IMG/VR virus record: IMGVR_UViG_3300014541_000011
Location: 1 to 37,810 of that record
Source: a virus
Direction: 5' to 3' (one strand)
Length of the DNA: 37,810 nucleotides
Shown piece after piece: positions 1 to 6,466 of this stretch (position 1 is its first letter; the number at the start of each line of letters is the position of its first letter). The notes under the pieces were generated by a model that was not told the DNA's origin, made no database searches, and saw only the letters and a list, made by a program, of their open reading frames with translations. Position numbers and translations under genes: made by a program.

Positions 1-239
1 CTGCCGAGGAAATGGTGGACATGTCTTTGCCCGTTTGGTCCGACAAATACGGCGAAGAAAACGGCATACTCGGCGAAGTAAATATAGATGGCGGGCCTAA
101 TAGAGGGATTGCTTTCCCGCAACCGACAACAGGCGATTACCGTGGCTATACGTTCAAGGTCCATATTCACGGTGGCAATCAACCGTGGATTAATTTAGGC
201 CCGTCCGTTGCTTGTCACGCTTGGCGACGCCAACAGTAA
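1..239 (+). CDS. 3' part (variable tip V1a) of wrap-around collar-domain tail fibre gene that starts at 37352; ends ...GGNQPWINLGPSVACHAWRRQQ*
   Basis: Same frame as ORF at 37352..37810 through the 77-nt terminal overlap. C-terminus matches the phage tail collar domain end (GxxQPxxNxxP..Y.W). Confidence 0.75.
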   Translation, partial: AEEMVDMSLPVWSDKYGEENGILGEVNIDGGPNRGIAFPQPTTGDYRGYTFKVHIHGGNQPWINLGPSVACHAWRRQQ

Positions 240-456
240 GTGGCTAAACATGGAGGCATATTATTGTGAGGTTGATCGTTGCCCGCCCTGAATCTAATTA
301 AGTCAAGCTCATTTCGCAACATTCCCGTGGCATAGCCATGCCCCTCTCTTACCGATTGGTCATAGGAAAAGACGCCTTTGGCGAAGATTGGCATCCCTTC
401 TTCTTGTTGAGGAATGTTTTGTAATTCTCCTTCTATTTTTGCCATTTCATCGGCAG
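215..456 (-). CDS. Promoter-less alternative C-terminal tail-fibre cassette V1b (75 aa after crossover repeat 442..456), collar-domain C-half ...GNDQPHNNMPPCLATYCWRRQA*
   Basis: TGA stop immediately upstream in frame and no RBS. In-frame repeat CTGCCGAtGAAATGG (rc of 442..456) matches CTGCCGAgGAAATGG in the parent gene at 37734..37748. Paralogous to V1a, similar length. Confidence 0.7.
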
Positions 457-687
457 CTATTCATTTCTAAACCACGAATAGCAGGCAACAGCAGGTTGCA
501 TATTCTGATGTGGTTGACCGCCACCAAAGTTTAGATTGATAATTACCCCTTCCATATTTTCAGTGGCGGCGGACGGAAACTTATTGCCCGTATTATTAAC
601 GGTAAAGGCGCCACTCAGAGTTTGCTTGTTACCCCACCGCAAAATCGTGCCAATTGAACCTTTGATGGGTGCGGATTCTTCGGCAGT
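457..687 (-). CDS. Promoter-less alternative C-terminal tail-fibre cassette V1c (...GGGQPHQNMQPAVACYSWFRNE*) beginning at in-frame repeat ACTGCCGAaGAA (rc of 676..687)
   Basis: Frame is open upstream of the TTG listed in the ORF track, and no ATG is present. In-frame TAEE at the repeat is identical to TAEE in the parent gene. Collar-type C-terminus. Confidence 0.65.
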   Translation of the reverse strand, partial: TAEESAPIKGSIGTILRWGNKQTLSGAFTVNNTGNKFPSAATENMEGVIINLNFGGGQPHQNMQPAVACYSWFRNE

Positions 688-2392: not shown

Positions 2393-2901
2393 AGCCGACG
2401 TTTGTTGATTACGGGCTTTGGTTTAAGCCGCTCCAAGAGCGGACTGCCACGGACTTGATTGTGATCCACCACACGGGGAATCCGACGGATGACGACTTGA
2501 GCGCCGAAGCAATCCACGAATCCCACCTTGCGCAAGATTGGGCGGGAATCGGCTATCATTTTGTCATCAGAAAGGACGGCTCCATTGAACTAGGACGGCC
2601 CATGGATACTGTAGGGGCGCACGCATACGGTTATAATAGCCGTTCCATCGGGATTCATGTTTGCGGTAACTTTGAAGTCGGAGAACCGACACCGCAACAG
2701 ATTGAATCCTGCTCCATCCTCGTTGCTTGGCTGGCGGATGAATACGGCATTGACATTGACACTGATACCGTTGTCGGACACCGTGACTTAATGGCAACCG
2801 CTTGTCCGGGTGACAACCTGTATAGCCAGCTACAGACTATCCGTGGCAAGGCCATATGGTATCAACAGCACTACGACGAGGACGGGCAGTACCATGATTA
2901 G
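2386..2901 (+). CDS. N-acetylmuramoyl-L-alanine amidase (amidase_2/PGRP fold) endolysin, no cell-wall-binding domain
   Basis: HHTGNP..., GYHFVI, GAHAYGYNSRSIGIHVCGNF and HRDL...CPG motifs typical of T7-lysozyme/PGRP amidases. Only 171 aa. Confidence 0.8.
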   Translation: MLKPTFVDYGLWFKPLQERTATDLIVIHHTGNPTDDDLSAEAIHESHLAQDWAGIGYHFVIRKDGSIELGRPMDTVGAHAYGYNSRSIGIHVCGNFEVGEPTPQQIESCSILVAWLADEYGIDIDTDTVVGHRDLMATACPGDNLYSQLQTIRGKAIWYQQHYDEDGQYHD

Positions 2902-3418
2902 GCTTCAAACAGGCATACGAATTAAGTTTTTCGCCTATACCTTTTTATGCTTCGTCATTGGCTTTTTGACGGGGTTTAGCTGGCGTGCGATTCATCACAA
3001 GTGTCAGACTCAAAAAGCCACTCAGACGGAAGATGTGGCGGTGGAATCCAAAATAGAAACCAAAACGATTGTTCGCTACGTGGAAAAGGAGTCTCCGCAG
3101 GACGCTGATGTGGATGTGACCGTGCCAAAGCAGACTTTGACCGTCAAAGTCAACGGCGAAACTCAAACCTTTAATAAATCCGACAACGAGCAATATATTT
3201 TGGACAAAAATAAAATCGCCCTGGAGCAGCAGTCCAAGGCGAGCGTTGATATCAAGGTACCCGTCATCGATGAGACACGCAAATGGGAGCTTGGCGTAGG
3301 CGTAGATAAGAATGGCCGCCCCGCTGGCATGGTCGGGTTCCCTGTCAAGGGACACGTTGGCGGATGGGTCGCAGGCAGTAAGGGTAACGTCATGGGCGGG
3401 ATCAAAGTCCACTTTTAA
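2894..3418 (+). CDS. Membrane-anchored protein (N-terminal TM plus soluble domain) ending the lysis cassette
   Basis: ATG overlaps the amidase stop (ATGATTAG). TM helix FFAYTFLCFVIGFLTGF. Confidence 0.4.
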   Translation: MIRLQTGIRIKFFAYTFLCFVIGFLTGFSWRAIHHKCQTQKATQTEDVAVESKIETKTIVRYVEKESPQDADVDVTVPKQTLTVKVNGETQTFNKSDNEQYILDKNKIALEQQSKASVDIKVPVIDETRKWELGVGVDKNGRPAGMVGFPVKGHVGGWVAGSKGNVMGGIKVHF

Positions 3419-3457
3419 AAATCGTTTGAAATCGAACGCAAATGCTGCGCACGAAGA

Positions 3458-3500
3458 AACCCCGTAAAGCTAGAAAATATCTGGCTTTACGGGGTGATTT
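3458..3500 (+). terminator. Hairpin (CCCCGTAAAGC ... GCTTTACGGGG) followed by GATTTT; terminator-like, possibly bidirectional
   Basis: Perfect 11-bp inverted repeat with a roughly 13-nt loop. Confidence 0.45.
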
Positions 3501-3514
3501 TAATTGCTTTTTAC

Positions 3515-3543
3515 TTGACAATCTAGACGATATAGTCTATAAT
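3515..3543 (+). promoter_or_regulatory. Consensus sigma-A promoter TTGACA-17 bp-TATAAT
   Basis: TTGACA at 3515..3520 and TATAAT at 3538..3543, then AGGAGGTGA RBS and an ATG at 3563. Confidence 0.7.
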
Positions 3544-3562
3544 ATAATCAGGAGGTGAGATA

Positions 3563-3658
3563 ATGGTAGATATAGAAAGAGCCCTTCAAGATTTGGCAAA
3601 TGTGATTACAATCCTGGTGGGAATTTACACATTATATCAAATCAGAAAGGGCAAGTAA
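3563..3658 (+). CDS. 31-aa hydrophobic peptide MVDIERALQDLANVITILVGIYTLYQIRKGK (type I toxin-like or holin-like; moron)
   Basis: Perfect promoter plus perfect RBS. Single TM segment with a basic C-terminus. Below the 60-aa ORF track cutoff. Confidence 0.55.
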   Translation: MVDIERALQDLANVITILVGIYTLYQIRKGK

Positions 3659-3664
3659 TCCTTC

Positions 3665-3689
3665 GGAGGCGGGATAACCGCCCGCCTCC
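3665..3689. terminator. GC-rich hairpin GGAGGCGGG-ataaccg-CCCGCCTCC downstream of the peptide gene
   Basis: 9-bp perfect stem. Weak U tract on either side. Confidence 0.4.
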
Positions 3690-3707
3690 CTATATCTATT
3701 ATAACAA

Positions 3708-3842
3708 AATGAAAAGAAAAACGCTATTAGGGATTATGCTTGGAGCGACAGTTATTGGTAATTGGGGGCGCTGGGATGCCTTATCCATAGGAGCTGTAGT
3801 ATGCCTATCCATCGCCGTTGGTATGGAGGTGTTTCGAAAATG
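3708..3842 (+). CDS. 44-aa membrane peptide (MKRKTLLGIMLGATVIGNWGRWDALSIGAVVCLSIAVGMEVFRK), translationally coupled to the downstream HTH gene
   Basis: ATGA overlap with the ORF at 3839. Two hydrophobic segments. No clear RBS. Confidence 0.35.
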
Positions 3843-4040
3843 AAACTTGCTGATGTGATGACGACGCAAGAAGCGAGCGCATTGTACGGGCGTACGGCGC
3901 ATACAATCAAGCAGGCATGTGAATCTGGACGGCTCACATCGGAAGAATGTCGTAAGTCCGGGAAGATGTGGCTCGTTACCCGTGCGGGCATGGAAAAGCT
4001 ATACGGCCCGACAGACGGCAAAAATACGGCAAAAAAATGA
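3839..4040 (+). CDS. Small HTH DNA-binding protein, excisionase (Xis)/HTH_17-like
   Basis: EASALYGRTAHTIKQACESGRL helix-turn-helix plus a W-containing wing. Convergent with and adjacent to the integrase. Confidence 0.55.
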
Positions 4041-4169
4041 TGGAAAATATACTATTTCATGGGTGAAATATCGAGGGTGTAATTTTGGCCATTGCGATGC
4101 AGTCTAGTGTTTTGGATTCATAAAAAAATATCGTTATATATCACAATTACGGAAAATAATAATGAAACG

Positions 4170-4200
4170 GCCCGTATCCCTTGTGGATACGGGCTTTTTT
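4170..4200. terminator. Rho-independent terminator (GCCCGTATCC-cttgt-GGATACGGGC-TTTTTT), bidirectional-looking
   Basis: 10-bp perfect stem plus T6. U-rich on the opposite strand as well. Flanked by direct repeats AAATACGGCAAAAA at 4023 and 4215. Confidence 0.75.
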
Positions 4201-4231: not shown

Positions 4232-5299
4232 TTAGTATAGAGATTCAATGGCTTTAGCTGCAACCTTATTGATGTCGTCCGTGTAATTGACGTAAACCTT
4301 GCAAACGGTGGCCACAGTGTCCCCTAAGACATGAGCGACAAGGTTAATATCTCCCGTCCTGGACAACAGGAGAGTGGCAAAGGTGTGGCGTAACGCATGG
4401 ATGGACCTACCGGGAAAGTTGCGACCAATCACACGATTCAGTTCAGTCTGAACAGAGTGCCCTTTATCAATTGGGAAAACAGTTCCTGTAATCTCCATTG
4501 GGCGTGTGTCACGCCACTTTTTTAGTTTCTGCAGGACAAGCGGAGAAGCCGGAATGGTTCGGTGGCTGTTTCGTGTTTTGCATGGACCAATACCGTAGCT
4601 ATTTTGACCAATGAGCGTGTATTGCTGGGTGATGGTAATGGTCTTTTTAAACCAGTCGATGGCATTCCAGGGTAGCCCATAAATTTCACCGAACCGCATA
4701 CCTGTGTTAGCGGCCAAGGTAATGACCAAACTATAAATCGAATTAAATTCAACAATATCTTGGAGCTTGGAAAGTTCTTCCTTCGTGAAGGCACGCAGGA
4801 TAGTAGGATTCTTTGATTGTGGGAGTTTAATTCCTTTAGCAGGATTAGAGGGGATAATCTTGTATATCTCCTTTGCATGCTCAAGCACCGGCGAGATGCA
4901 GCGTAGATGAGCCCTCTTAGAACTGGCCTTCCCTTCAATCTGCATCAAAGCGTTGGTAAGATTTGCCGTGGTAATATCCCTAATTGGCACAGTGGCAAGA
5001 TTTCCCATTTTTTTCAAGGCCAGGGCGTAATTCTTCAATGTATTTGGAGCTAAAAATTCCTTTTTGTCACGCATAAAGATGGGTAAAAATTGTTGAAGTG
5101 AAATATTTTTAAGGGTAGCGTCGTCCGTCAGGCCTTCCAATTCCTTAACTTGCGCAAGCAGCTCATCCTGATAGCGGCGGGCCTCTCTTTGATTTTTAAA
5201 TCCTTGCTTTGTCTTTTGTCGCCACTTGGTGCCGACTTTGTAGGACAGGATCAGGCAGACACCGCCATTTTTCTCACGATACGAAAAGGTATATTCCAT
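4232..5299 (-). CDS. int: Tyrosine integrase (phage integrase family, 355 aa)
   Basis: C-terminal catalytic motifs HALRHTFAT...LGDT...Y. AAAGGAG RBS. Sits beside the Xis-like gene and the repressor module. Confidence 0.85.
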   Translation of the reverse strand: MEYTFSYREKNGGVCLILSYKVGTKWRQKTKQGFKNQREARRYQDELLAQVKELEGLTDDATLKNISLQQFLPIFMRDKKEFLAPNTLKNYALALKKMGNLATVPIRDITTANLTNALMQIEGKASSKRAHLRCISPVLEHAKEIYKIIPSNPAKGIKLPQSKNPTILRAFTKEELSKLQDIVEFNSIYSLVITLAANTGMRFGEIYGLPWNAIDWFKKTITITQQYTLIGQNSYGIGPCKTRNSHRTIPASPLVLQKLKKWRDTRPMEITGTVFPIDKGHSVQTELNRVIGRNFPGRSIHALRHTFATLLLSRTGDINLVAHVLGDTVATVCKVYVNYTDDINKVAAKAIESLY

Positions 5300-5385: not shown

Positions 5386-5421
5386 CCCTGCTGGTACCGC
5401 AAATACCAGCAGGGATTTTTT
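5386..5421 (+). terminator. Strong hairpin CCCTGCTGGTA-ccgcaaa-TACCAGCAGGG followed by ATTTTTTATTT
   Basis: 11-bp perfect stem plus a T run on the + strand, between int and the exonuclease gene. Confidence 0.6.
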
Positions 5422-6466
5422 ATTTATCTTCTCTGATTTTGTACTGATGCACATAATCAGCAGGAAGCGGTGGTGCAAGCTTCTTTTCTATGATGGTGGC
5501 AATAAGATCTTTTTTCAGACCCTTCGTGGGAAGCCCGGCGTCTGCCAGAATCTTTTGAAGGTCTGCCTTATGCAGCTTACTCAATTCAATCTCATTGGAA
5601 ACATCTACAAGGCGGGCATATGTTCCCGGATTCACAAAGTCCCTAATGAAATCTTCTTTTGAGTAATTTTTTGGCTTTTCCTTGTATAAGGATTCGTAGG
5701 AAATCCCACCAGCGTAAGTCTTTGCCTCATACAAGACAGCCTTGACAAAAAGTTCCTCAGAAAACCGGTACAGAGATTTGATGATGGGGACTGTCCCTTT
5801 ATCCATGGTATCCTGCATGATTTGGGCACATGCCTTGGCATCAGACAGGGATTCATGGTGATTCAAGTCGAGATTGAGATATTTACAGATGGTGTCCAGC
5901 TTGTAGTTTTCCAGATTCCTGTAGGTGTATCTGGCACTCTGCAGAGAGTCGGCAAAGAGAAGCGGTTTATCCAGGGTGATTCCTTCCGTCTTAGCGGTAT
6001 AGATCAGACAGCCCATATCAAAGTTGGCGTTGTGTGCCACCAGGGGGAACCCTTTGATGAAATCGCGGAAGGTGGATTCATAGAATTCTTTGAAGGTGGG
6101 AGAATTCCGAACTTTTGACCAGGTGATTCCATGGACATAGGAATTCGTGAATTTTGCTTCCGGAGGCTTAATCAAAGAAGTGACAGAACCAGTGAACTGC
6201 CGGTTTTCAACTTTTACGGCGGAAATACTACAGATTGAATATGGCTGCGCATTGGCAGTTTCCACATCGAATGCCACAAAGCTGTCCATCGGGACCCTGT
6301 ATTCATTTGTCACCGGCAGTCTTACCCTTGCAAATCCCTTGTATTCGGGAAGCCTAAATGGGGCCAGTTCATCTGGCTTCATGGGAGATTCTGCAATCAT
6401 CCTGTCCTTTGCTTTTTTATTTAAAATGACAACAACGAAAATAACAATGACAATTAATAATGCCAT
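5420..6466 (-). CDS. Membrane-anchored DnaQ-like (DEDDh) 3'-5' exonuclease with C-terminal SAP domain
   Basis: N-terminal TM ALLIVIVIFVVVIL. Exo motifs FDVETA, HNANFDMGCL and H..SLSDAKAC. C-terminal DLQKILADAGLPTKGLKKDLIATIIE (SAP-like). Confidence 0.6.
   Translation of the reverse strand: MALLIVIVIFVVVILNKKAKDRMIAESPMKPDELAPFRLPEYKGFARVRLPVTNEYRVPMDSFVAFDVETANAQPYSICSISAVKVENRQFTGSVTSLIKPPEAKFTNSYVHGITWSKVRNSPTFKEFYESTFRDFIKGFPLVAHNANFDMGCLIYTAKTEGITLDKPLLFADSLQSARYTYRNLENYKLDTICKYLNLDLNHHESLSDAKACAQIMQDTMDKGTVPIIKSLYRFSEELFVKAVLYEAKTYAGGISYESLYKEKPKNYSKEDFIRDFVNPGTYARLVDVSNEIELSKLHKADLQKILADAGLPTKGLKKDLIATIIEKKLAPPLPADYVHQYKIREDK

What the first reader, a model, noticed from the sequence alone, without database searches (positions are those of the whole stretch)
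3458..3706. Insulated mini-cassette: consensus promoter and RBS driving a 31-aa membrane peptide, with a convergent extended -10 promoter
The cassette lies between two hairpins. It has a textbook TTGACA-17-TATAAT promoter and AGGAGGTGA RBS driving MVDIERALQDLANVITILVGIYTLYQIRKGK, a single TM segment with a basic tail. On the opposite strand TTTGTTATAAT (rc of 3698..3708) would launch an antisense RNA through the 3' hairpin into the ORF. This layout resembles type I toxin-antitoxin loci (Fst/TxpA-like). It could alternatively be a lysogenic-conversion or superinfection-exclusion peptide, located just upstream of the xis/int region.
Basis: partly seen in the sequence, partly recalled or inferred. 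Interest (0 to 1): 0.55.

Follow-up and report, generated by a model that had tools for sequence, protein, structure and literature searches.

The report
Prophage membrane peptide with antisense RNA
A prophage, probably of the gut bacterium Megasphaera, carries a conserved gene for a 31-residue membrane peptide whose mRNA folds to hide its own start codon and faces an antisense promoter, the layout of an RNA-controlled toxin-antitoxin pair, and it appears related to the unexplained Listeria small-RNA pair rli48/rli98.

Summary
The 31-aa ORF is under purifying selection: 4 synonymous and 0 non-synonymous differences to its closest variant, and dN/dS of 0.15-0.27 to distant ones. In all six Megasphaera-type lineages sampled it lies after the lysis genes at the prophage end.

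The minus-strand extended -10 box is kept in 5 of 6 Megasphaera-type lineages and in Listeria phages. There the same strand is the detected sRNA rli48, and the sense strand is rli98. Reciprocal covariance-model hits, peptide shuffle tests and gene order link the two modules.

New here: the sense RNA has a conserved long-range helix that pairs the AUG and first codons with the 13 nt just 3' of the GC hairpin. Compensatory changes support it, as in hok and aapA1 toxin mRNAs.

"Insulated" is doubtful. The 3' hairpin has no T tract. The downstream 2-TM (two-transmembrane-segment) and HTH genes have no promoter of their own. Peptide-less relatives fuse the same promoter and SD directly to the 2-TM gene.

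Best reading: a new type I toxin-antitoxin-like family that forms the first cistron of a small operon (confidence about 0.5). Toxicity is untested, and the peptide matches no known toxin family.

The parts
3459..3495 (.). 5' GC-rich hairpin, a candidate bidirectional terminator. It ends the late/lysis transcript on the + strand and would end the antisense RNA on the minus strand.
   Evidence: Called as a terminator. Folds at -28.1 kcal/mol (+) and -24.2 (-). The stem differs by compensating changes between lineages, and A/T tracts are kept on both sides.
3515..3543 (+). Sense promoter TTGACA-17-TATAAT. The predicted transcription start is about 3550, the first base of the SD.
   Evidence: 12/12 match. 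One of two in the window, 0 expected. The hexamers are conserved while the spacer diverges. The start site is inferred from spacing only.
3524..3539 (.). Inverted repeat TAGAC-N6-GTCTA inside the promoter spacer, reaching into the -10. Candidate operator.
   Evidence: Unique in the window. An inverted repeat sits at the same place with a different sequence in other lineages: L014 TACATC-N6-GATGTA, L042 ATATCA-N8-TGATAT, Listeria AATACATGTATT. Protein binding is inferred.
3550..3558 (+). Shine-Dalgarno AGGAGGTGA, 4 nt before the ATG.
   Evidence: Read directly. Invariant in all six Megasphaera-type lineages.
3563..3658 (+). 31-aa peptide gene: amphipathic acidic N-terminal part, short hydrophobic helix, RKGK tail.
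   Evidence: ORF. A family of 31-aa peptides was found among 1.84 billion proteins. Codon differences: 4 synonymous and 0 non-synonymous against L003; dN 0.197 and dS 0.73 against L014.
3563..3575 (+). 5' strand of long-range helix P1 (AUGGUAGAUAUAG), covering the start codon and codons 2-5.
   Evidence: RNAalifold consensus. 92% of cells are paired, against 24-50% when the partner is slid. Three pairs change on both sides. G.U pairs fit the + strand only.
3581..3652 (+). Long imperfect hairpin made by the coding region itself.
   Evidence: The equivalent hairpin appears in the Listeria alignment and in the Rfam rli48 consensus structure.
3665..3689 (.). 3' GC hairpin (GGAGGCGGG / CCCGCCTCC) with no T tract after it. 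It is a structural element of the sense RNA and the 5' stem-loop of the predicted antisense RNA.
   Evidence: Folded; not called as a terminator. It is more stable on the + strand in L003, L014, L019, L042 and L044 because of G.U pairs.
3690..3702 (+). 3' strand of helix P1 (CUAUAUCUAUUAU). It lies 7-19 nt upstream of the 2-TM start codon.
3698..3706 (-). Antisense extended -10 promoter TGTTATAAT. The predicted start is about 3691, just before the GC hairpin.
   Evidence: Kept as TGTTATAAT (L003), TGTTATGAT (L014), TGCTATGAT (L019), TGATATGAT (L042), TGTTATAAT (Listeria B025) and TGATATACT (L002). In L044 the TG is displaced by one base. The Listeria RNA on this strand is rli48. No transcript data exist for this phage.
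3709..3843 (+). 44-aa 2-TM (two-transmembrane-segment) miniprotein gene with no SD and no promoter of its own.
   Evidence: Shuffle tests give p = 3e-4 against the L014 48-aa protein, which in turn gives p = 5e-5 against the Listeria 45-aa protein. Peptide-less relatives carry an SD upstream of it.
3840..4040 (+). 66-aa HTH_59 protein, excisionase-like. Its ATG overlaps the 2-TM stop (ATGA) and its SD, GGAGGTG, lies within the end of the 2-TM ORF.
   Evidence: Pfam PF20038, E = 1.5e-22. PHROG 2655 excisionase, E = 1.3e-15. Sequence read.
4169..4195 (.). Bidirectional terminator that ends the predicted operon (+) and the integrase transcript (-).

Best explanation
The cassette is a type I toxin-antitoxin-like module, and it forms the first cistron of a small operon at the prophage end (peptide, 2-TM [two-transmembrane-segment] miniprotein, HTH_59 protein).

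The proposed mechanism runs as follows.

1. A consensus promoter makes an mRNA that starts at about 3550. This step is inferred from promoter spacing.
2. Once about 13 nt beyond the GC hairpin have been transcribed, that tail (3690-3702) pairs with the AUG and codons 2-5 (3563-3575). The RNA closes into a compact form made of helix P1, the ORF-internal hairpin and the GC hairpin. In this form the peptide cannot be initiated. The fold is shown comparatively; the block to translation is inferred.
3. A cis-antisense RNA starts at about 3691 from the conserved extended -10 box. It begins with the complement of the GC hairpin and runs back across the ORF, probably to the 5' hairpin at 3459-3495. 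The promoter's conservation is shown. A transcript has been shown only for the Listeria counterpart, rli48.
4. Pairing of the two RNAs, probably starting at the complementary hairpin loops, blocks translation and/or triggers cleavage of the duplex. This step is inferred by analogy with bsrG/SR4, yonT/SR6 and txpA/RatA.
5. If the peptide is made, it inserts into the membrane and harms the cell. That would stabilise the prophage or abort infection. This step is inferred and untested.

An inverted repeat in the promoter spacer is probably an operator for the downstream HTH_59 protein, which would give autorepression. This too is inferred.
For: The gene is coding and conserved.

- A family of 31-aa peptides exists.
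- Substitutions are biased toward synonymous changes.
- The identical peptide occurs on 56 or more contigs. In the ten places shown it always follows the amidase and precedes HTH_59.

Regulatory signals are conserved while neighbouring bases diverge.

- This holds for the -35, the -10 and the SD, and the 5' hairpin changes by compensating substitutions.
- The antisense TGnTAT(A/G)AT box is kept in 5 of 6 Megasphaera-type lineages and in Listeria phages. In L044 the TG is shifted by one base.

The sense RNA is structured.

- Its fold has z = -4.66 against shuffles.
- RNAalifold gives the same topology independently for the Megasphaera set and the Listeria set.
- Helix P1 has 92% of cells paired, against 24-50% in slid controls. 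Three pairs carry compensatory changes. The covariation score was reached by 1 of 500 shuffles.
- P1 uses three different sequences in the three groups: GUAGAUAUAG/CUAUAUCUAU, GGGUAUA/UAUACCC and UUAGAGG/CCUCUAA.

The module appears related to Listeria rli48/rli98.

- Rfam rli48 matches window 3705-3559 on the minus strand: full model length, 28.5 bits, E = 0.0035-0.0098.
- A model built only from the six Megasphaera RNAs puts the rli98 locus first in all six Listeria phage sequences searched (56 kb in total), at 17-24 bits and E = 3e-4 to 0.017. The next unrelated hit scores 14.2 bits.
- The peptide shuffle test gives p = 1.5e-4 and the 2-TM shuffle test p = 5e-5. hhalign gives P = 2.2e-4 over the full length.
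- Gene order and position between lysin and attP are the same.
- rli48 and rli98 are reported as an antisense pair in the A118-like prophage (PMC4179725, PMC3105390). Published primers show that rli48 is the strand antisense to the ORF.

There is a precedent for a type I toxin as the first gene of a polycistronic prophage mRNA: yonT-yoyJ/SR6 (PMC5848175).
Against: - No toxicity data exist, and no transcript data exist for this phage.
- The peptide matches no known type I toxin family.
- Its hydrophobic stretch is short and less hydrophobic than that of Fst or BsrG.
- The best-conserved part is the polar N-terminal IExALQDLAN. That pattern suggests a specific partner rather than generic membrane damage.
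- The SD is perfect and unpaired in the predicted fold, and the 5' UTR is only about 13 nt. Translation during transcription is therefore not obviously prevented.
- The antisense promoter has no -35, and it faces a 12/12 sense promoter.
- Part of the antisense -10 (3698-3702) is also the 3' strand of helix P1, so its conservation is confounded. Only the TG at 3705-3706 lies outside P1.
- The match to Rfam rli48 is far below the family's gathering score (28.5 against 100 bits). Rfam did not match the variants L003, L004, L014 or L019 in a larger search.
- Cross-family hmmsearch of the peptides is not significant.
Confidence: 0.5

Rival explanations
1. The peptide is a non-toxic accessory membrane miniprotein. 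It would act in lysogenic conversion, superinfection exclusion or anti-defence, probably together with the 2-TM (two-transmembrane-segment) miniprotein encoded next to it. The operon would be autoregulated in the manner of acr-aca operons: a strong promoter with an operator in its spacer, small effector genes first, and an HTH repressor last. The antisense RNA and the RNA fold would only tune expression.
For: - The peptide is always followed by a 2-TM gene and a small regulator-like gene: six of six Megasphaera-type lineages and all eight Listeria phages.
- The polar N-terminal motif is the most conserved part.
- The hydrophobicity is marginal for a transmembrane helix.
- The promoter spacer carries an inverted repeat whose sequence differs between lineages, as do the HTH_59 sequences. 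The geometry matches the Listeria acr promoter bound by the AcrIIA1 N-terminal domain (10.1101/787200).
- The module sits in a cargo hot spot next to AcrIIA3, AbiD/F, DUF3800 or Mrr genes.
- Its GC content is low, 36.6% against 49.9% for the window.
Against: - Sequestering the start codon and adding a cis-antisense RNA over the whole ORF is an unusually heavy control for a harmless peptide. It is typical of toxin mRNAs.
- None of the three proteins matches a known exclusion, Acr or defence family. The only PADLOC hit is weak: mad1 for the HTH protein, E = 0.0047.
- The 2-TM and HTH_59 pair works without the peptide in other elements.
Confidence: 0.3
2. The short ORF, the hairpin and helix P1 form a regulatory leader (an upstream ORF combined with an RNA switch). 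Its job would be to control expression of the downstream 2-TM and HTH_59 genes, the latter being excisionase-like. P1 also covers positions -19 to -7 of the 2-TM start region. Translation of the leader, or binding of the antisense RNA, would open P1 and switch the downstream genes on.
For: - The 2-TM ORF loses its SD exactly when the cassette is present. Peptide-less relatives place the same promoter remnant and SD directly on the 2-TM gene.
- The 3' strand of P1 lies in the 2-TM translation-initiation region.
- The peptide stop codon lies only 6 nt before the GC hairpin.
- There is no + strand promoter between 3660 and 3840.
- In Listeria the sense RNA rli98 is listed as extending 176 nt beyond the rli48 5' end.
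Against: - Leader peptides are normally not conserved at the amino-acid level. Here dN/dS is 0.15-0.27, and an amphipathic, then hydrophobic, then basic design is kept from Megasphaera to Listeria.
- No run of regulatory codons or arrest motif is evident.
- The third gene differs between the two genera (HTH_59 against an unrelated 69-aa protein), while the peptide and 2-TM genes stay.
Confidence: 0.12
3. There is no functional antisense RNA in this phage. The minus-strand box would be conserved only because the same bases form the 3' strand of helix P1 and the 2-TM initiation region. The cassette would then be a plain, constitutively expressed small gene.
For: - Five of the six -10 positions overlap P1.
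- There is no -35.
- TGNTATAAT alone occurs five times in the window.
- In L044 the TG is displaced by one base.
Against: - The TG lies outside P1 and is kept in register in 5 of 6 Megasphaera-type lineages and in the Listeria phages examined.
- In Listeria an RNA from exactly this strand and position has been detected repeatedly (PMC4179725, PMC3105390).
- The 5' hairpin keeps T tracts on both strands.
Confidence: 0.08

Closest known systems
Listeria monocytogenes sRNA pair rli48 (Rfam RF01479) / rli98 in A118-like prophages and Listeria phages B025, LP-101, U153 and others
   Same: - Same layout: promoter with an inverted repeat in its spacer, SD, a 31-33-aa ORF (amphipathic, then hydrophobic, then basic), a GC hairpin, a minus-strand TGnTATAAT box, a 2-TM (two-transmembrane-segment) ORF of about 45 aa with no SD, and a small third ORF.
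- Same place, between the lysis genes and attP.
- Same RNA topology, including helix P1.
- Reciprocal covariance-model matches, and significant shuffle tests for both small proteins.
   Different: - The window scores 28.5 bits against the family's gathering score of 100, so it is not a member by Rfam's rule.
- The module points the opposite way relative to the lysis genes and int.
- The third gene is unrelated.
- The start codon is GTG in Listeria.
- In the papers searched, rli48 and rli98 are treated as non-coding sRNAs. None mentions the ORF or a toxin-antitoxin reading.
yonT-yoyJ/SR6 of Bacillus subtilis prophage SPbeta, and the related 3'-overlapping systems bsrG/SR4, bsrE/SR5 and txpA/RatA
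   Same: - A prophage-borne small toxin gene is transcribed as the first gene of a polycistronic mRNA.
- The antisense RNA starts on the 3' side and touches the 5' end of a second small gene.
- The antisense promoter is weaker than the toxin promoter (PMC5848175; organisation of Gram-positive families in PMC8594479).
   Different: - No sequence relationship was detected (Pfam search).
- The peptide is shorter and less hydrophobic.
- Here the antisense RNA would cover the whole ORF.
- Toxicity and RNase III dependence are unknown.
hok/Sok and aapA1/IsoA1 toxin mRNAs (5'-3' fold-back or long-distance interaction)
   Same: The 3' tail of the mRNA pairs with the translation-initiation region and gives a closed, translationally inert full-length RNA (own knowledge; PMC5416894 and PMC6733600 appear in the listing).
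   Different: - Here the AUG and first codons are sequestered, not the SD.
- No 3' trimming step is known.
- The hosts are Firmicutes.
- There is no sequence similarity.
acr-aca-type autoregulated operons, for example the Listeria phage acr promoter repressed by the AcrIIA1 N-terminal domain
   Same: A consensus-like promoter has a palindrome filling the spacer up to the -10. Small genes come first and an HTH protein last. The position is between lysin and attP (10.1101/787200).
   Different: - The palindrome sequence is different.
- The first two products are membrane miniproteins, not soluble Acr proteins.
- Neither binding nor anti-defence activity has been tested.

Membership tests
Type I toxin-antitoxin systems (class) | Small hydrophobic peptide (under about 60 aa) encoded by the toxin mRNA | tested here: met
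   A 31-aa ORF under purifying selection. The hydrophobic core covers residues 11-25 and is short and only moderately hydrophobic.
Type I toxin-antitoxin systems (class) | Antisense RNA that base-pairs with the toxin mRNA | tested here: inconclusive
   The extended -10 box is conserved in 5 of 6 Megasphaera-type lineages and in Listeria. A transcript has been shown only for the Listeria counterpart, rli48. No expression data exist for this phage.
Type I toxin-antitoxin systems (class) | Toxin mRNA folded so that translation is restrained | tested here: met
   Helix P1 pairs the AUG and codons 2-5 with 3690-3702: 92% of cells paired, 3 compensatory pairs, and the same topology in Listeria. The effect on translation is inferred.
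Type I toxin-antitoxin systems (class) | Peptide toxic when expressed without the antitoxin, and neutralised by the RNA | not testable with these tools
   This requires expression experiments.
Rfam RF01479 (rli48) | Covariance-model score at or above the gathering threshold of 100 bits | tested here: not met
   The window scores 28.5 bits (E = 0.0035-0.0098). L003, L004, L014 and L019 gave no hit at E <= 1. Listeria phage loci score 171-178 bits. The reciprocal model R1 ranks the Listeria locus first in six of six phage sequences. The window cassette is therefore a remote relative, not a member.
Known type I toxin protein families in Pfam and NCBIfam (Fst, TxpA/BsrG-type 'holin-like toxin', Hok, Ldr, TisB, Ibs and others) | Significant match to the family profile | tested here: not met
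   Pfam gave no family at E <= 1 and NCBIfam none at E <= 10 for the window peptide and the Listeria peptide. The only PHROG hit is a holin family at E = 0.27. PADLOC gave none.
yonT-yoyJ/SR6-type polycistronic type I TA | The toxin is the first cistron, and the antisense RNA starts between the toxin and a second small gene and overlaps both | tested here: inconclusive
   The layout matches at the level of predicted signals. The predicted antisense start (about 3691) lies 18 nt upstream of the 2-TM ATG, so overlap with the second gene's coding region is not predicted. No homology was found.
acr-aca-type autoregulated anti-defence operon | The downstream HTH protein binds an inverted repeat in its own promoter | not testable with these tools
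   The inverted repeat is present and unique in the window. It is replaced by different repeats in other lineages, whose HTH_59 sequences also differ. Binding has not been tested.
acr-aca-type autoregulated anti-defence operon | The upstream small genes inhibit a host defence system | not tested
   None of the three proteins matches PADLOC or any annotated Acr family. Membrane miniproteins are atypical for Acr proteins.

The most novel reading that the evidence does not exclude
The module is a three-part membrane system governed by one RNA switch. The 31-aa peptide would be a toxin. The 2-TM (two-transmembrane-segment) miniprotein would be its protein-level immunity or partner. This reading rests on one pattern in the sample: the 2-TM gene occurs alone, but the peptide never occurs without it.

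The single helix P1 would hide both translation start regions at once. Binding of the rli48-like antisense RNA to the peptide ORF would then free the 3' strand of P1. That would silence the toxin while switching on the 2-TM and regulator genes.

If so, the Listeria sRNAs rli48 and rli98 would be the two RNAs of a protein-coding prophage addiction or defence module shared between Bacilli and Negativicutes.
Probability: 0.15. Interest if true: 0.7.

Novelty: new member of a known kind. Interest (0 to 1): 0.5.

Why it matters
- It would add a new type I toxin-antitoxin family. As far as the searched literature shows, it would be the first in Negativicutes (diderm Firmicutes).
- It would give a concrete, testable function to the Listeria prophage sRNA pair rli48/rli98. 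These RNAs are reported as induced in macrophages and in the intestine, and rli48 as an inducer of interferon-beta, yet they have no known role.
- It would show that a hok/aapA1-style fold-back lock on a toxin mRNA also occurs in Firmicute prophages.
- It offers a compact natural example of a start-codon-sequestering helix shared between two adjacent small genes.
- Small ORFs like this one are usually unannotated. In the Listeria phage records examined the ORF itself is not annotated, and two records (B025 gp31, vB_Lmo_2389_typeII) instead carry a CDS on the opposite strand.

Tried and rejected
- blastn of 3400-3900 against 50,697 phage records found no match. tblastn of the peptide gave one chance-level hit.
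- The search for homologous proteins and the search for related loci refuse queries under 40 aa. I replaced them with phmmer against the 1.84-billion-protein representative set and a back-translated motif scan. Nine of the 12 genome hits were chance matches in unrelated taxa.
- Pfam, NCBIfam, PHROGs and PADLOC gave nothing significant for the peptide or the 2-TM (two-transmembrane-segment) protein.
- Cross-family hmmsearch was not significant. The Megasphaera HMM against all B025 frames did not list the Listeria ORF among the hits printed. The Listeria HMM ranked the window ORF first of 1065 frames, but at E = 1.8. Narrow HMMs built from close relatives are too specific. Profile-profile comparison, shuffle tests and covariance models were more informative.
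- Rfam rli48 did not match L003, L004, L014 or L019 in a 54-kb search. The single Rfam hit is therefore weak on its own.
- I tested whether the phage CI repressor controls the cassette. The palindrome TAGAC-N6-GTCTA has no second copy in the window, even allowing one mismatch, so I dropped that idea.
- I considered helix P1 as DNA-level terminal inverted repeats of a mobile insertion. This is less likely because G.U pairs fit only the + strand RNA, and the indel ends do not coincide with the repeat ends.
- The second minus-strand TGATATAAT at 3631-3639 is not kept in L042 or L044 and lies in coding sequence, so I did not rely on it.
- The profile search with the 2-TM alignment found only close Megasphaera-type and Listeria-type relatives and no bridging taxa.
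- The Impens 2017 N-terminomics paper is not held, and the Mraheil 2011 supplements are not held.
Full report
**1. What is in the sequence**

- A strong hairpin lies at 3459-3495 with a T tract after it. It folds at -28.1 kcal/mol with z = -8.9. On the minus strand it folds at -24.2 and is followed by TTTCTT.
- The promoter is TTGACA (3515-3520), 17 nt, TATAAT (3538-3543).
- AGGAGGTGA lies at 3550-3558 and the ATG at 3563. The 31-codon ORF ends at 3658.
- A 9-bp GC hairpin lies at 3665-3689, at -19.9 kcal/mol with z = -4.1.
- TGTTATAAT lies on the minus strand at 3698-3706.

The perfect promoter is not chance. Two exact matches exist in 37.8 kb against none in 100 shuffles, and the other one precedes the cro-like gene. 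The minus-strand box alone is not significant: 5 matches against 0.63 expected. The cassette has 36.6% GC in a window of 49.9%.

**2. Context**

The window looks like a complete temperate phage genome.

- Upstream lie a holin-like ORF, an Amidase_2 endolysin (2386-2901) and a membrane ORF.
- Downstream lie a 44-aa ORF with two hydrophobic segments (2-TM; 3709-3843) and a 66-aa HTH_59 protein (3840-4040). The HTH_59 protein is excisionase-like: Pfam E = 1.5e-22 and PHROG 2655 E = 1.3e-15.
- Its ATG overlaps the 2-TM stop codon (ATGA).
- A bidirectional terminator follows at 4169-4195, then the integrase at 4232-5299 on the minus strand.

No + strand promoter is predicted between 3660 and 3840. 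The 3' hairpin is not called as a terminator because no T tract follows it. The transcription unit predicted from canonical signals therefore runs from about 3550 to about 4200 and covers three genes. It is not a mini-cassette insulated on both sides.

**3. The peptide gene is real**

phmmer against 1.84 billion representative proteins found a family of 31-aa peptides at 61-100% identity.

- The identical peptide is on 56 or more contigs. In the ten places shown it always follows the amidase and precedes HTH_59, usually at the prophage end next to host genes.
- A back-translated motif scan placed family members in Megasphaera hexanoica and in an uncultured Megasphaera. The host is therefore probably Megasphaera (Negativicutes; taxonomy from my own knowledge).
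- Invariant residues cluster in the polar N-terminal IExALQDLAN.
- Codon differences are 4 synonymous and 0 non-synonymous against L003. Against L014, dN is 0.197 and dS is 0.73 to 1.3.
- No antisense-frame ORF is conserved.
- The hydrophobic core (residues 11-25) is short and less hydrophobic than that of Fst or BsrG. The N-terminal part is strongly amphipathic.

**4. Regulatory signals are conserved**

Alignments of the Megasphaera-type lineages (window, L003, L014 and L019; L044 and L042 read directly) show the following.

- The 5' hairpin is kept through compensating changes, with A/T tracts on both sides.
- The -35, the -10 and the SD are kept while the spacer diverges.
- The 3' hairpin diverges but always folds. 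It is more stable on the + strand in five variants because of G.U pairs.
- The minus-strand box is kept as TGTTATAAT, TGTTATGAT, TGCTATGAT or TGATATGAT. In L044 the TG is shifted by one base.
- The promoter spacer always contains an inverted repeat that touches the -10, and its sequence differs between lineages:
  - window: TAGAC-N6-GTCTA, imperfect in L044;
  - L014: TACATC-N6-GATGTA;
  - L042: ATATCA-N8-TGATAT.
- The window repeat has no second copy in the phage.

The HTH_59 sequences differ between these lineages. The Listeria phage acr promoter, bound by the HTH domain of AcrIIA1, has the same geometry. I infer an operator for the downstream HTH_59 protein. Binding has not been tested.

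**5. The link to Listeria rli48/rli98**

Rfam's rli48 model matches window 3705-3559 on the minus strand over its full length, at 28.5 bits and E = 0.0035-0.0098 for the region searched. The family's gathering score is 100 bits.

The reverse complement of the rli48 consensus encodes VKDVLEEIKTVLEIVTLAVALITLRKRDKNKDK. Listeria phages B025, LP-HM00113468, LP-101, U153 and others carry this locus between lysin and attP. The order of elements there is:

1. a promoter with the palindrome AATACATGTATT in its spacer;
2. an SD and a GTG start codon;
3. a 33-aa ORF;
4. a GC hairpin;
5. a minus-strand TGTTATAAT or TGATATACT box;
6. a 45-48-aa 2-TM ORF with no SD;
7. a 69-aa ORF.

The literature lists rli48 and rli98 as an antisense pair in the A118-like prophage (PMC4179725; PMC3105390). 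Published in-vitro-transcription primers show that rli48 is the strand antisense to the ORF and begins at the -10 box, and that rli98 is the sense strand. Tabulated coordinates are rli48 2361274-2361405 (-) and rli98 2361329-2361581 (+). They imply that sense transcription continues about 176 nt past the rli48 start, into the 2-TM ORF. This is an inference, because I could not map the coordinates onto the EGD-e sequence.

Is the resemblance homology? The evidence is mixed but mostly positive.

- Against: hmmsearch between the two peptide families is not significant, and Rfam did not match the other Megasphaera variants in a larger search.
- For: hhalign aligns the two profiles end to end with P = 2.2e-4.
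- For: composition-preserving shuffles give p = 1.5e-4 for the peptides and p = 5e-5 for the L014 2-TM protein against the Listeria 2-TM protein.
- For: a covariance model built only from the six Megasphaera sense RNAs, run without filters over six Listeria phage sequences (56 kb in total), put the rli98 locus first in all six. Scores were 17-24 bits and E = 3e-4 to 0.017. The best unrelated hit scored 14.2 bits. These E-values are rough.

Together with the shared order and position, I rate common ancestry at about 0.7.

**6. A conserved fold of the sense RNA**

The predicted mRNA (3550-3700) folds far better than shuffles, at -51.5 kcal/mol with z = -4.66. RNAalifold on the Megasphaera set and, separately, on the Listeria set gives the same topology:

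- a long-range helix, P1, that pairs the start codon and first codons with the 13 nt just 3' of the GC hairpin;
- a long hairpin inside the ORF;
- the GC hairpin.

P1 uses different sequences in different groups. The window has GUAGAUAUAG/CUAUAUCUAU, L014 has GGGUAUA/UAUACCC, and Listeria has UUAGAGG/CCUCUAA. On six sequences, 92% of P1 cells pair, against 24-50% when the partner is slid. Three pairs change on both sides. Only 1 of 500 shuffles reaches the covariation score. This is a small, related sample, so the support is modest.

G.U pairs at the AUG end fit only the + strand. The predicted antisense start (about 3691) excludes most of the P1 complement. P1 is therefore a feature of the sense RNA. 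Sequestering the initiation region through a 5'-3' fold-back is the device of the hok and aapA1 toxin mRNAs (own knowledge; PMC5416894 and PMC6733600 appear in the listing).

**7. The cassette is an add-on to a 2-TM/HTH_59 pair**

A profile search with the 2-TM proteins and the contig look-ups that followed found the 2-TM gene, alone or with HTH_59, without any peptide. These copies sit at the ends of other integrative elements, next to ResIII or Mrr genes. There the 2-TM gene has its own SD. In L033 and L040, remnants of the L014-type promoter and palindrome sit directly upstream. The peptide ORF, hairpin and antisense box therefore behave as an indel of about 150 nt between the SD and the 2-TM ATG.

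In the sample, the peptide is never without the 2-TM gene, while the reverse occurs. The 3' strand of P1 lies 7-19 nt upstream of the 2-TM start codon, where an SD would be.

**8. Interpretation**

The combination below is the signature of Gram-positive type I toxin-antitoxin loci (PMC8594479):

- a selected membrane-type peptide;
- a strong promoter;
- an mRNA that locks its own start codon;
- a conserved antisense promoter on the 3' side;
- a prophage location.

yonT-yoyJ/SR6 of SPbeta shows that such a toxin can be the first gene of a polycistronic mRNA, with a second small gene next to the antisense promoter (PMC5848175). I therefore favour a new type I TA-like family embedded in a small autoregulated operon, at about 0.5.

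The main rival, at about 0.3, is a non-toxic membrane miniprotein working with the 2-TM protein in exclusion, conversion or anti-defence. The conserved polar motif, the marginal hydrophobicity and the hot-spot location favour it: AcrIIA3, AbiD/F, DUF3800 or Mrr genes lie next door. A leader/RNA-switch role for the downstream genes comes next at about 0.12. The reading with no functional antisense RNA is at about 0.08.

Only experiments can decide on toxicity. The peptide belongs to no known toxin family.

**9. Novelty**

Six papers in the searchable library mention rli48 and four mention rli98. In the passages retrieved from all six, none mentions the ORF or a toxin-antitoxin reading. The main text of the T1TAdb paper mentions neither Listeria nor Negativicutes. 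A search for Megasphaera, prophage and toxin-antitoxin together returned nothing relevant. If confirmed, this is a new family of a known kind, and it would explain an orphan pair of Listeria sRNAs.

Noticed in passing
window 12-642 and 838-1806: Three tail-fibre-like C-terminal ORF fragments have related endings (...QPWINLGPSVACHAWRRQQ on the + strand...QPHNNMPPCLATYCWRRQA and ...QPHQNMQPAVACYSWFRNE on the minus strand). They lie next to a tyrosine recombinase that sits between the tail-fibre genes and the lysis cassette. A recombinase occupies the same position in L004, L006, L009 and L012. This may be an invertible host-range cassette. No long inverted repeats were found in 1-2100.
   Followed up: partly
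window 3631-3639 (minus strand): A second extended -10 match, TGATATAAT, lies inside the peptide ORF. It is largely kept in L003, L014 and L019 but not in L042 or L044. Coding constraint on the residues L-Y-Q may explain it.
   Followed up: partly
window 3709-3843; L033, L037, L040 around 2480-2500: The 2-TM ORF has no Shine-Dalgarno sequence whenever the peptide cassette precedes it. It has one (AAGAGGA, GGAAGGTGA or AAGGAGAG) in peptide-less relatives. How it is translated in the cassette-bearing form is unexplained.
   Followed up: partly
L026 1549 onward; L029 and L030 1448-1547; L031 1251-1545; L040 2934-3878: The module sits in a cargo hot spot. AcrIIA3 follows it on the same strand in Listeria phage FHC15313-PLM26. 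A DUF3800 gene or an AbiD/F-like gene follows in other Listeria phages. ResIII and Mrr restriction-like genes flank the peptide-less 2-TM/HTH_59 pair in Megasphaera-type elements.
   Followed up: no
L001 3435-3599 (B025 gp31) and L030 614-799: Some Listeria phage records annotate a CDS on the rli48 strand across this locus, while the 33-aa ORF on the other strand is unannotated. Given the similarity to the Megasphaera peptide and the synonymous changes among Listeria variants, these CDS calls are probably on the wrong strand.
   Followed up: partly
window 5420-6466 (minus strand): The gene next to the integrase encodes a DEDDh (RNase_T-like) exonuclease with a SAP domain. It matches the PADLOC models 'cas-associated DEDDh' (E = 6.8e-28) and PDC-S48 (Pfam families via L012). 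It may be a defence or anti-defence gene in the lysogeny region.
   Followed up: no
window 2894-3418: The ORF after the endolysin is called as 174 aa in related loci. It has an N-terminal hydrophobic segment and matches only phrog_37316, of unknown function. In a diderm host it could be a spanin-like lysis accessory protein.
   Followed up: no
L042 1358-2305: In one lineage an IS-type transposase (rve domain) is inserted just upstream of the cassette promoter and replaces the 5' terminator hairpin seen in L043. The cassette promoter region is otherwise identical.
   Followed up: no
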